Origin: a virus | Lineage: Duplodnaviria; Heunggongvirae; Uroviricota; Caudoviricetes | Strand: one strand, 5' to 3' | DNA: 7,374 nucleotides | IMG/VR virus record: IMGVR_UViG_2639762982_000006 | Shown here: positions 1,693-4,600 of the stretch, piece by piece | Position numbering within the stretch: the first letter of the stretch is position 1 | Layout: each line of letters opens with the position of its first letter | Position numbers: made by a program

Positions 1693-4600
1693 TTAACAGA
1701 TTCTACGAGTTGTCATTTGTGACAGTATGCTCGCAATCGTAGTGATTACTACCACCAACTGCTAGCTTTCTTCTCTCTAGCTTTTCCTTCGCTTTGCAGT
1801 AAATCTTTACTTCCTGTAGAAATATTTCTATTTGCATCAGCCTCAGACTGAATTACATCTGTCTTAGCTGCTCTCTCCTTCAACTCCTGCTCTATAAAAT
1901 CGTTTTCTCGCTGGACACGAGCCGCTTTTGCTTGCAGTTCGAGTTTCATGCTTTCGAGTTGCAGCTTGCGAAGCTCATCCTCATAAGCTTGATCTCGCTT
2001 CTTGTCATTTGCTAGCTCGGCTTCTCGTTTCGCTCTACGTTCATTTTCTGCAGCAACACGCTGTTTTTCGCGTGCAGCAGCGGCAGATGCTGCTTTTTCT
2101 CTTCTAATACGTTCAGCTTGTGCTTGTTGGCGAATAAGTTCTTTTCTGGCATCCTCAGCTTGCTGCTCTTTAGCTCGCCCTTCATTTTCCGCTTGAGCAA
2201 TAGCAGCAATTTGACTTTGCAACGAGTTAGCCAAGGCAGTGCCTACACTAAACGTAGAAAAGATTAGAAATAAAATAATTTTATTCATAAATTATTTCTT
2301 TTCTGGACAAGTAGCATTTGGCTGAATTCGAGTTTCATTATCTTTAGTTGAAATAAGCACAGCAAGCCCCGTTGTAAACTGGCATGCTTTACCAACTTGA
2401 GTTGAAGTGAACACCTTAGTTCCTTCTTTATAAGTCAGTGAAACACCTTCAACAATTGTTTTATCACTAACCAAAGAACCAGCCGCTGCACCAAGAGCCG
2501 CACCACCAGTACCGCCAGCTACAGCACCCAGTGTCGATGTGCCTTTAACATTATAACCGGCAACGCCCCCAGCAACAGCTCCCAGTACCGCACCAAATGT
2601 CTGTGCCGCTTCTTTATTAGCTTTATTATCAACTTTCACTTTAGCTGGAAGCACAGAGATAATATTGACTGTCTTTGTTTCCTGCTTCGAATTCAATTGA
2701 GCGGTATCATAAACATCGGCAGCATAATCAGCACCGCTAGATTGACACCCAGAAAGAAGAATTGCAGATACAACAAGAGCGCATAAAGTATACTTTTTAG
2801 ACATAAGAATCATCCCAGAAAAACAAAAACCGGCGAGAAGTTACCACGAGAACGGAAAGTAAACAAGAATACTCCCATTGACTTATATCAATTAATCAAC
2901 TTTTTATAAGCTATCCCTAACTTATTGTGTATAGCTGAAAAGTCAGAGACAAGTTCACCATCTGCATTATTTCTTAAGTTAATAGTTTATTGCTAACTTA
3001 ATTTATGTATCGACTATTGATATCCATCTTAAAGTTACAATATCCATCTGCATTATTTTTCATCACAAATAATATATCTATTGCACGACACTAATCTGCT
3101 CTAATAAATTTGTATTTTTAAGTCGCGAATGCTATCTTTTTGCATCATATTGACCTTTTAATCGTTCAGGCTTATAGTTTCGCCGTCGTAGCAAATTCTG
3201 CGACCGGGTTTAGCAGCCTGAATACTTACGCGGACAACCGCAGATTTCCGATATTGCGGTATTTTTGTGTCCGTAAACCACGTTACGCCCGAATTATGGT
3301 GGGGCGTGATGGGGAGGCTTCGGCCTGCTGGTTTCGTAAGTGCCAGTCTGCTAACCCCGTCACGTCCTGCCACCTGTTTAGCAGCGGGTCGCAGGTTGTT
3401 TATCAACTTACGAGGCCGTAACTATGGTTAATGCCAATCCTTGCGCACGCCAAGAATTCATCTGGCGTTTCTATTCCTGCAAAAAACACCACTATCACTT
3501 CGTCATCGCAGCAACAGAAGACGAAGCACGCTCTCAATTGCCTGATGGCCCCTGCATTTTTACTGCCCGTTTTTCAACTAACTCGCGCAATTCACTTAGT
3601 TACTGGAACCTCCCCTTCTCTGCCGACGTTCAGGGGGTTTTATGAAAAAACCTCTCGTCACCCGTAATGACATAGCCGAAGCGATCGCCCTGCATACTGC
3701 CTGTATGCCGACACGGGAGATCCCCGGCGCAATTGCCAACTATTTCATGATAACCAGACGTTTTTATACCCGAACAGATAAGGCTGTGATCAACAGGCTA
3801 CTGATAGCCGAGATCAGGGATTATTTGATTGAACAAGGACGTCTACGTTACGCAACGGTGGCAGCAGAAATGAGAAAGGAGGCACATAGAATGACCAGTA
3901 ATAATTTGAATGTTAAAAAACCAGCATCTGTTGCTTCAGCTACGCCATCACCAGCTGTGAATGTTATCTCCAACACTGGAGACACAATCGACAGCCAGAC
4001 GCTGTTAAAGATGGTCAATGAAGCGCGTAAGTTATGTGGGGAACCAGAGGTTCGGAACAACAAATTCATCAAAAAAATACTCGACGAATTAGAAGGTGAG
4101 GACGGTTACACAAAAAGTGCAACCGTGCCGCCAGGTGGCGGTACGCCTATGGTTGTCATAACCATGACCTACAAACAAGCCCTGCGAGTCGCCGCGCGCG
4201 AGTCAAAAGCAGTCCGCCGTTCGCTGATCGACAAACTGGAAGAATTGCAGCAGGCAAACTCCCCTGCCCCATCGATCCCCCAAACATTACCAGACGCTCT
4301 ACGCCTGGCTGCCGAGTTGGCAGAACAGAAAATGCAGTTGGAACAACAGCTGGTGGCCGCAGCCCCTAAAGTCGATTTTGCCGACCGGGTATCAGCGGCT
4401 AATGGAATCCTGATCGGGAACTTTGCAAAGGTCGTTGGACTTAAGCAAAACGCCCTTTTCTCATGGTTGCGCCAGAACGGCATTCTCATGGCTTTTGGTG
4501 CGCGCAAAAACGTACCGCGCCAACAGTACATCAACGCCGGGTATTTCACGGTGAAAGAAGTGGTGCTGGATGATGAAAATGGCTACCAGATACGGCTGAC

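What the first reader, a model, noticed from the sequence alone, without database searches (positions are those of the whole stretch)
3640..3646. ATGA stop-start overlap couples icd-like ORF to ant
The icd-like stop TGA (3643-3645) overlaps the ant ATG (3642-3644). In P1, icd translation is required for ant expression. The same overlap here means antisense control at b2 would shut off both genes at once.
Basis: partly seen in the sequence, partly recalled or inferred. Interest (0 to 1): 0.45.

Follow-up and report, generated by a model that had tools for sequence, protein, structure and literature searches.

The report
Known P1 icd–ant stop-start overlap
The four-base ATGA overlap between the small icd gene and the antirepressor gene ant1 is real, but it is the well-known, already annotated layout of the phage P1/P7 immunity (immI) operon, carried here on a published P1-like E. 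coli plasmid, so it is ordinary.

Summary
ATG at 3642-3644 (ant1, 347 codons) overlaps TGA at 3643-3645 (icd, 73 codons).

The window is 100% identical to E. coli plasmid pSvP1_F (NZ_MN510446.1), a published P1-like phage-plasmid. NCBI's annotation there already shows icd and Ant overlapping by 4 nt. The P1 and P7 reference records have the same overlap, and the P1 record notes Icd as "apparently required for expression of ant".

The rest of the immI operon is present:
- the promoter and C1 operator
- the a1/b1 sites
- C4 RNA (Rfam, 70.8 bits)
- a2 and b2, perfectly complementary to the C4 loops, with b2 overlapping the icd ribosome-binding site
- the internal ant2 start

Across about 115 related loci, icd's stop overlaps the next gene's start in four lineages. 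Two have a P1-type Ant (ATGA), one a Roi-like antirepressor (TGATG), and one an unknown 82-aa protein (ATGA). The C4 loops and their targets co-vary perfectly in all but one locus.

Ant2 has its own strong ribosome-binding site, so full shut-off also needs the Rho-dependent termination inside untranslated icd reported for P1.

Novelty: already known. Interest: low.

The parts
3095..3111 (+). C1 repressor operator Oc4 (Op51), TCTGCTCTAATAAATTT
   Evidence: Identical to the annotated P7 operator. Matches 15 of 17 bases of the P1 Oc4 at the homologous position.
3150..3178 (+). Sigma-70 promoter P1c4 (P51b): TTGACC-17-TATAGT
   Evidence: Found by the promoter scan with 10 of 12 matches. Aligns with the annotated P1 promoter.
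3210..3231 (+). Upstream a1 (TTAGCAG, 3210-3216) and b1 (ACTTACGC, 3224-3231) C4-complementary sites
   Evidence: Rfam c4-a1b1 RF03163, 55.3 bits over 3172-3224. Positions mapped from the P1 annotation via alignment A1. These sites co-vary with a'/b' across loci.
3298..3374 (+). C4 antisense RNA (77 nt by homology to P1); b' loop TCGTAAGT 3334-3341, a' loop CTGCTAA 3348-3354
   Evidence: Rfam C4 RF01695, 70.8 bits against a gathering score of 45. Mature ends inferred from the P1 annotation through alignment A1.
3378..3384 (+). a2 target site TTAGCAG
   Evidence: Perfect reverse complement of a'.
3406..3415 (+). b2 target site ACTTACGA (3406-3413), overlapping the icd Shine-Dalgarno GAGG (3412-3415)
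   Evidence: Perfect 8-nt reverse complement of b' (duplex -8.4 kcal/mol). Lies at the position of the annotated P1 b2.
3424..3645 (+). icd, 73 codons, cell-division (FtsZ) inhibitor; C-rich/G-poor RNA
   Evidence: ORF list. NCBIfam NF033153. 96% identical to P1 Icd. GC skew -0.25 to -0.385 over about 3420-3640. Icd function from PMC11897509.
3633..3637 (+). ant1 Shine-Dalgarno GGGGG, inside the last icd codons
   Evidence: Anti-SD duplex -10.1 kcal/mol. Conserved in all P1-type junction variants.
3633..3655 (+). Predicted hairpin GGGGGUUUU/AAAACCUCU with AUGAA in the loop, sequestering the ant1 SD (weak evidence)
   Evidence: Centroid structure -8.9 kcal/mol. The fold z-score is not significant. 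The hairpin appears in most junction variants but without compensatory changes.
3642..3645 (+). ATGA stop-start overlap (ant1 ATG 3642-3644, icd TGA 3643-3645)
   Evidence: Read directly. Same as the P1, P7 and pSvP1 annotations. Present in 83 of 86 scored P1-type icd ORFs.
3642..4685 (+). ant1, antirepressor Ant1, 347 codons
   Evidence: Pfam ANT/KilAC E=5e-31. 93% identical to P1 Ant1. Codons 1-45 are conserved in frame 0 only against a 65%-identical lineage, with 14 synonymous changes.
3876..4685 (+). ant2: SD AAGGAGG 3876-3882, in-frame ATG 3891, same stop as ant1
   Evidence: Homologous to the annotated P1/P7 ant2 start. Anti-SD duplex -11.6 kcal/mol.

Best explanation
This is the immI immunity operon of a P1/P7-type plasmid prophage (pSvP1). 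It most likely works as described for P1.

1. One transcript from the C1-controlled promoter carries a1/b1, C4 RNA, a2/b2, icd, ant1 and ant2.
2. Processed C4 RNA pairs through its a' and b' loops with a2 and b2. Because b2 overlaps the icd ribosome-binding site, icd translation is blocked.
3. No ribosomes then reach the icd stop codon. Ant1 initiation at the overlapping AUG is lost, whether it normally occurs by termination-reinitiation or by ribosomes opening the local SD-containing structure.
4. The untranslated, C-rich icd RNA lets Rho terminate transcription before ant. This also removes Ant2, which has its own ribosome-binding site.
5. When C4 is titrated or absent, icd is translated. 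Icd blocks FtsZ and cell division, and Ant1/Ant2 are made and inactivate the C1 repressor.

Shown here: all the sequence parts, their homology to P1/P7, perfect and co-varying C4-target complementarity, and conservation of the stop-start overlap across four lineages.

Inferred from P1 literature or annotation: the dependence of ant on icd translation, and the Rho step.
For: - The window is 100% identical to pSvP1_F, whose annotation has icd and Ant overlapping by 4 nt.
- P1 and P7 have the same overlap and carry functional notes on it.
- Rfam finds C4 and c4-a1b1.
- Icd and Ant1 are homologous to the P1 proteins.
- a'/a1/a2 and b'/b1/b2 are perfectly complementary in the window and co-vary across 2 a-types and at least 5 b-types.
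- ATGA is kept in 83 of 86 scored P1-type icd ORFs.
- An overlap is also kept where the downstream gene is divergent or unrelated.
- ant1 has a strong SD just upstream, while Met22 and Met36 have none.
- Coding conservation starts at ant1 codon 1.
- icd RNA is C-rich and G-poor.
- ATGA/TGATG pairs were strictly coupled in 13 of 14 tested cases, including E. coli pairs (PMC6728339).
Against: - No expression data exist for this element.
- The ant1 SD is strong enough that some independent initiation is plausible.
- The SD-sequestering hairpin is no more stable than shuffled sequence and has no compensatory support.
- 4-nt overlaps are common, so the overlap alone does not prove regulatory coupling.
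- The primary P1 papers could not be read here, so the Rho step and the genetic proof of coupling are cited from memory and from the GenBank notes.
Confidence: 0.85

Rival explanations
1. The overlap is just compact gene packing. The dependence of ant on icd translation is purely transcriptional (Rho polarity in untranslated icd), and Ant1 initiates de novo at its own strong SD whenever the mRNA exists.
For: - ant1 has a strong SD (-10.1 kcal/mol) and ant2 a stronger one (-11.6).
- icd RNA is C-rich and G-poor, as rut sites are.
- About 15% of co-directional gene pairs overlap anyway.
- The hairpin is not statistically supported.
Against: - A stop-start overlap is retained in four lineages, including two where the downstream gene is unrelated to Ant. 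With a background near 15%, this is unlikely without selection.
- 13 of 14 tested ATGA/TGATG pairs were strictly coupled, even those with SD motifs.
- The two mechanisms are not exclusive.
Confidence: 0.12
2. Ant1 really starts at a downstream in-frame codon (Met22 at 3705 or Met36 at 3747), so there is no functional overlap.
For: - Some automated annotations of close relatives call only the shorter Ant2-length ORF (MH422554).
- The P1 record notes that the Ant1 prediction was revised in length.
Against: - There is no SD before Met22 or Met36 (duplex energies +1.6 and +1.9).
- Met22 is Ile in the L009-L011 lineage.
- Codons 1-45 show 14 synonymous and 19 replacement differences, and frame 0 is the only open frame.
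- The 1989 record X15639 already placed the ant1 start at this ATG.
Confidence: 0.02
3. The 73-codon ORF is not a real gene here; it is a leftover or leader only.
For: It has no Pfam hit. Natural alleles with a nonsense codon (L042) or a frameshift (L047) exist.
Against: - It matches NCBIfam phage_ICD_like.
- It is 96% identical to P1 Icd, which has been shown to inhibit FtsZ (PMC11897509).
- The ORF is intact in 83 of 86 scored P1-type icd ORFs.
Confidence: 0.01

Closest known systems
Bacteriophage P1 immI operon (c4-icd-ant1/ant2; GenBank AF234172 / NC_005856)
   Same: Same gene order, same 73-codon icd, same ATGA overlap, same 347-aa Ant1 (93% identical) and nested Ant2. Same promoter and operator positions, and the same C4 scaffold with a1/b1 and a2/b2 sites.
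   Different: DNA is 93.9% identical. The C4 recognition loops differ: P1 has a' CTGTCAA and b' TCACTAAC, while the window has a' CTGCTAA and b' TCGTAAGT, with matching target changes. This predicts a different immI specificity. The upstream sim genes are replaced by P7-like lipoprotein and DUF5384 genes.
Bacteriophage P7 immI operon (AF503408)
   Same: Identical C1 operator, identical a' loop and a1/a2 sites, the same ATGA overlap, and the same upstream lipoprotein gene context.
   Different: The b' loop and b1/b2 differ at 4 of 8 positions (P7 TCACAATC, window TCGTAAGT). The middle of Ant differs, so the DNA match covers only 92% of the query.
Phage D6 c4-icd-antirepressor cassette (MF356679)
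   Same: Same b' loop and b2 (TCGTAAGT/ACTTACGA), the same C4 scaffold and icd 5' half, and an icd stop that overlaps the next start.
   Different: The a' loop is P1-type. The icd 3' half is divergent. The downstream gene is a Roi-like antirepressor unrelated to Ant1, and the overlap is 1 nt (TGATG) rather than 4.
Termination-reinitiation coupled gene pairs in bacteria (Huber et al. 2019, PMC6728339)
   Same: Co-directional ATGA overlap with an SD inside the 3' end of the upstream gene.
   Different: Here the upstream gene is itself under antisense-RNA control, and a Rho-dependent step is layered on top. Coupling in this element has not been measured.

Membership tests
P1/P7 immI operon | C4 antisense RNA encoded upstream on the same strand | tested here: met
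   Rfam RF01695, 70.8 bits (gathering score 45) at 3292-3377.
P1/P7 immI operon | C4 loops a'/b' complementary to a2/b2, with b2 overlapping the icd ribosome-binding site; upstream a1/b1 copies | tested here: met
   a'/a2 pair at 7 of 7 positions and b'/b2 at 8 of 8. b2 (3406-3413) overlaps SD GAGG (3412-3415). a1 and b1 are present, and RF03163 scores 55.3 bits.
P1/P7 immI operon | icd homologue of about 73 codons directly after b2 | tested here: met
   ORF 3424-3645, 96% identical to P1 Icd, NCBIfam NF033153 E=3e-14.
P1/P7 immI operon | icd stop overlapping the ant1 start (ATGA) | tested here: met
   3642-3645. The same overlap appears in the P1, P7 and pSvP1 annotations.
P1/P7 immI operon | Ant1 and in-frame nested Ant2 with a KilAC (ANT) domain | tested here: met
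   Pfam PF03374 E=5e-31. 93% identical to P1 Ant1. ant2 ATG at 3891 behind AAGGAGG.
P1/P7 immI operon | C1-controlled operator and promoter upstream | tested here: met
   The operator at 3095-3111 is identical to the P7 operator. Promoter TTGACC-17-TATAGT lies at 3150-3178.
P1/P7 immI operon | ant expression requires icd translation | not testable with these tools
   Stated only as a note in the P1 GenBank record and in PMC8201110. The primary papers are not held.
P1/P7 immI operon | Rho-dependent termination inside untranslated icd | not testable with these tools
   Composition is consistent (GC skew down to -0.385 within icd). The claim itself comes from memory of Biere, Citron and Schuster 1992.
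Termination-reinitiation coupled gene pair | Co-directional -4 or -1 overlap with an SD in the 3' end of the upstream gene | tested here: met
   ATGA with GGGGG 4 nt upstream of the ATG, anti-SD duplex -10.1 kcal/mol.
Termination-reinitiation coupled gene pair | Downstream translation abolished by a premature stop in the upstream gene | not testable with these tools
   Needs reporter fusions. A natural icd nonsense allele (L042) exists but has no expression data.

The most novel reading that the evidence does not exclude
The 3' third of icd may act mainly as a portable coupling adaptor rather than as part of the Icd protein's function.

- Icd residues 52-73 are dispensable for FtsZ inhibition (PMC11897509).
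- DNA homology between P1-type and D6-type cassettes ends inside icd at about codon 37.
- The divergent icd tail travels with whichever downstream gene follows (Ant1, a Roi-like antirepressor, or an 82-aa unknown).
- In every case the tail carries that gene's SD and a stop-start overlap.

On this reading, the tail exists to deliver ribosomes, and to expose or hide a Rho entry site, for any payload placed under C4 control. That would make C4-icd a general plug-in antisense switch.
Probability: 0.25. Interest if true: 0.3.

Novelty: already known. Interest (0 to 1): 0.1.

Why it matters
It matters little as a discovery. The overlap and its regulatory meaning were worked out for P1 in the early 1990s and are written into the P1, P7 and pSvP1 database records.

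Its value here is as confirmation that this plasmid prophage carries an intact, apparently functional secondary-immunity switch. The C4 specificity (P7-type a, D6-type b) differs from both P1 and P7, which predicts which related phages it would be immune to.

The wider survey adds a modest point. A stop-start overlap after icd is a conserved property of C4-icd cassettes whatever gene follows.

Tried and rejected
- The primary P1 papers (Lobocka 2004, Riedel 1993, Heinrich 1994, Citron 1992) are not held. The functional claims therefore rest on GenBank notes, secondary papers and memory.
- I looked for an SD-sequestering structure as the coupling mechanism. A 9-bp hairpin with AUGAA in the loop is predicted, but the fold z-scores are -0.15 and +1.6 and no compensatory changes occur among 22 junction variants. 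I kept it only as a weak hint.
- A terminator-like stem plus TTTT at 3616-3641 was found, but the scan gave 4 hits against 2.6 expected, which is chance level.
- Alternative Ant1 starts at Met22 and Met36 were rejected.
- Pfam gave no hit for Icd; NCBIfam did.
- The first protein search found only close Icd relatives. The genome-collection scan returned only 6 loci.

Full report
**Observation**

The window reads ...GTTCAGGGGGTTTTATGAAAAAACC... around the site. A 73-codon ORF (3424-3645) ends with TGA at 3643-3645. A 347-codon ORF (3642-4685) begins with ATG at 3642-3644.

**Identity of the locus**

The whole 7374-bp window is 100% identical to E. coli plasmid pSvP1_F (NZ_MN510446.1, 58282-65655, reverse strand). 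This is the P1-like phage-plasmid described by Venturini et al. 2019 (PMC6906374). NCBI's annotation of that record already lists an "Icd-like" CDS and a "phage antirepressor Ant" CDS overlapping by 4 nt.

The region 3100-4700 is 93.9% identical to phage P1 and about 96% identical to P7. In P1 (AF234172), icd is 48470-48691 and ant1 is 48688-49731, which is the same overlap. The P1 record carries three relevant notes:
- Icd is "apparently required for expression of ant".
- b2 is a [quoted passage not shown].
- ant2 is a nested in-frame start.

P7 is annotated the same way.

The window's Icd is 96% identical to P1 Icd and matches NCBIfam phage_ICD_like. Its Ant1 is 93% identical to P1 Ant1 and has the KilAC/ANT domain. 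P1 Icd has been shown experimentally to inhibit FtsZ, with residues 12-51 sufficient (PMC11897509).

**Anatomy in window coordinates**

| Feature | Coordinates | Evidence |
|---|---|---|
| C1 operator, identical to P7 | 3095-3111 | |
| Promoter TTGACC-17-TATAGT | 3150-3178 | |
| a1 | 3210-3216 | |
| b1 | 3224-3231 | |
| C4 RNA (Rfam 70.8 bits) | 3298-3374 | |
| b' loop TCGTAAGT | 3334-3341 | |
| a' loop CTGCTAA | 3348-3354 | |
| a2 TTAGCAG | 3378-3384 | |
| b2 ACTTACGA | 3406-3413 | |
| icd SD GAGG (overlapped by b2) | 3412-3415 | |
| icd | 3424-3645 | |
| ant1 SD GGGGG | 3633-3637 | |
| ant1 | 3642-4685 | |
| ant2 SD AAGGAGG | 3876-3882 | |
| ant2 ATG | 3891 | |

Downstream lie kilA, repL and a hok/sok module.

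**Is the overlap more than chance?**

As a tetranucleotide, ATGA is at its expected frequency. Overlapping co-directional gene pairs are also common, at about 15% of such pairs in most prokaryote groups (PMC6728339). A single instance would therefore mean little.

Conservation is what carries the weight. I collected about 115 related loci from phage records, IMG/VR and GTDB genomes.

- **P1 type.** 83 of the 86 icd ORFs that could be scored (excludes D6, which that scan also picked up) are 73 codons long and end in ATGA. This holds across 22 junction sequence variants. The exceptions are a nonsense allele (L042), a -1 frameshift in the G run (L047) and the 1989 record X15639, which has sequencing errors.
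- **A lineage about 80% identical in Icd** (L009-L011, and the second copy on pSvP1 itself, L093). It has a different junction sequence (CAGGAGGGACTATGAGAACG) but again ATGA. The downstream Ant is divergent.
- **Phage D6 and 23 of 24 D6-type IMG/VR loci.** These have TGATG, a 1-nt overlap. The downstream gene is a Roi-like antirepressor unrelated to Ant1.
- **A fourth lineage** (L094/L095, 67-aa Icd). It has ATGA followed by an unrelated 82-aa ORF.

So a stop-start overlap after icd is a conserved feature of C4-icd cassettes, whatever gene follows.

**Is 3642 the real Ant1 start?**

- The ATG is preceded by a strong SD (anti-SD duplex -10.1 kcal/mol). Met22 and Met36 have none.
- Against the 65%-identical L011 sequence, codons 1-45 show 14 synonymous and 19 replacement differences. 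Frame 0 is the only open frame.
- Met22 is not conserved in that lineage.
- Even the 1989 record placed the ant1 start at this ATG.

**Antisense control**

In the window, a'/a1/a2 and b'/b1/b2 are perfectly complementary. Across the collected loci there are two a-types and at least five b-types, in at least seven combinations. All but one locus show exact complementarity between the C4 loop and both of its targets. The exception is L041.

This is strong covariation evidence that pairing at a2 and b2 is under selection. The window's combination (P7-type a, D6-type b) is the second commonest, with 22 loci.

**Mechanism**

The best-supported account is the published P1 model.

1. C4 occludes the icd ribosome-binding site.
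2. Without icd translation, no ribosome reaches the ATGA junction, so Ant1 is not initiated.
3. From my memory of Biere, Citron and Schuster 1992 and Heinrich et al. 1994 (papers not held), Rho terminates transcription within the untranslated icd.

The window's icd RNA is markedly C-rich and G-poor, with GC skew down to -0.385. That is compatible with a Rho entry site.

Ant2 has its own strong SD 250 nt downstream (-11.6 kcal/mol), so the overlap alone cannot silence Ant2.

General experimental work shows ATGA/TGATG pairs are usually strictly coupled, in 13 of 14 tested cases including E. coli pairs.

A predicted 9-bp hairpin (3633-3655) places the ant1 SD in a stem and AUGAA in the loop. It is no better than shuffled controls and lacks compensatory changes, so I treat it as a hint only.

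**Rivals**

- Pure Rho polarity with an incidental overlap remains possible (about 0.12). It is not exclusive of translational coupling.
- A downstream Ant1 start is rejected on the evidence above.
- A non-genic icd is likewise rejected.

**Novelty and verdict**

The feature is real, correctly interpreted, and already known and annotated. It is the textbook arrangement of P1/P7 immI, on a published plasmid. Interest is low.

The modestly new observations from the survey are:
- the lineage-independent conservation of the overlap
- the apparent co-transfer of the dispensable icd 3' tail with its downstream payload
- the combinatorial C4 specificity types

I could not check whether these have been described, for example in the D6 genome paper, which is not held here.

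Noticed in passing
window 3210-3231, 3334-3354, 3378-3413; loci L001-L119: C4 recognition loops and their targets come in 2 a-types and at least 5 b-types (TCACTAAC, TCACAATC, TCGTAAGT, TCACAAGT, TCATTCGT), in at least 7 combinations. 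Complementarity to a1/a2 and b1/b2 is exact in all but one locus. The window is P7-type a plus D6-type b, neither the P1 nor the P7 combination, which predicts a distinct immI specificity.
   Followed up: partly
L093 1507-3097 (NZ_MN510446.1 about 4006-5596): The same plasmid carries a second C4-icd-ant module (RD-1 of Venturini et al.). It also has an ATGA overlap, and its a'/b' loops and a/b targets are identical to those of the window module. One C4 species should therefore repress both icd-ant copies.
   Followed up: partly
L041 (IMGVR_UViG_2565956613_000015), about 40-240: This locus has b' = TCATTCGT and b1 = ACGAATG, but b2 = GTTAGTGA (P1 type). Its own C4 cannot pair with the icd ribosome-binding site at b2. 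It could be a recombinant with de-repressed icd/ant, or an assembly chimera.
   Followed up: no
L042 2500-2722; L047 2500-2743: Two natural icd alleles stand out. L047 has lost one G from the G run, so icd reads 24 nt into ant1. There are no expression data, and either could be a sequencing error.
   Followed up: no
window 1-370: Homology to other P1-like plasmids starts only at base 371. Bases 1-185 encode the C-terminal end of an IS91-family transposase in the pSvP1 annotation. An IS insertion or inversion therefore truncates the P1 tail-gene region next to tub.
   Followed up: partly
window 6833-7157: A hok/sok-type post-segregational killing module is present. Rfam sok scores 114.9 bits at 6833-7007, and a 51-aa Hok/Gef ORF lies at 7002-7157.
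   Followed up: no
window 1749-2813, minus strand: The P1 superimmunity genes simABC, which lie upstream of c4 in P1, are replaced here by a P7-like lipoprotein gene (2292-2813, weak TraT and glycine-zipper hits) and a DUF5384 gene (1749-2288).
   Followed up: no
window 3616-3641: The window allele has T instead of G at 3638. This creates a weak stem (TTCTCTG/CAGGGGG) followed by TTTT, which the terminator scan flags. The hit is at chance level (4 found against 2.6 expected) and is absent from P1 and P7.
   Followed up: partly
L017 and L052 (both on IMGVR_UViG_2703718869_000013): One 97-kb viral contig carries two P1-type icd loci about 28 kb apart, with different C4 specificities (P1 type, and CTGTCAA/TCACAAGT). 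It could be a double immI element or a mis-assembly of two co-resident plasmid prophages.
   Followed up: no
window 4763-4779: A second C1 operator-like sequence (xTTGCTCTAATAAATTx) lies upstream of kilA. It corresponds to P1 OrepL/Op53, which controls kilA-repL.
   Followed up: no
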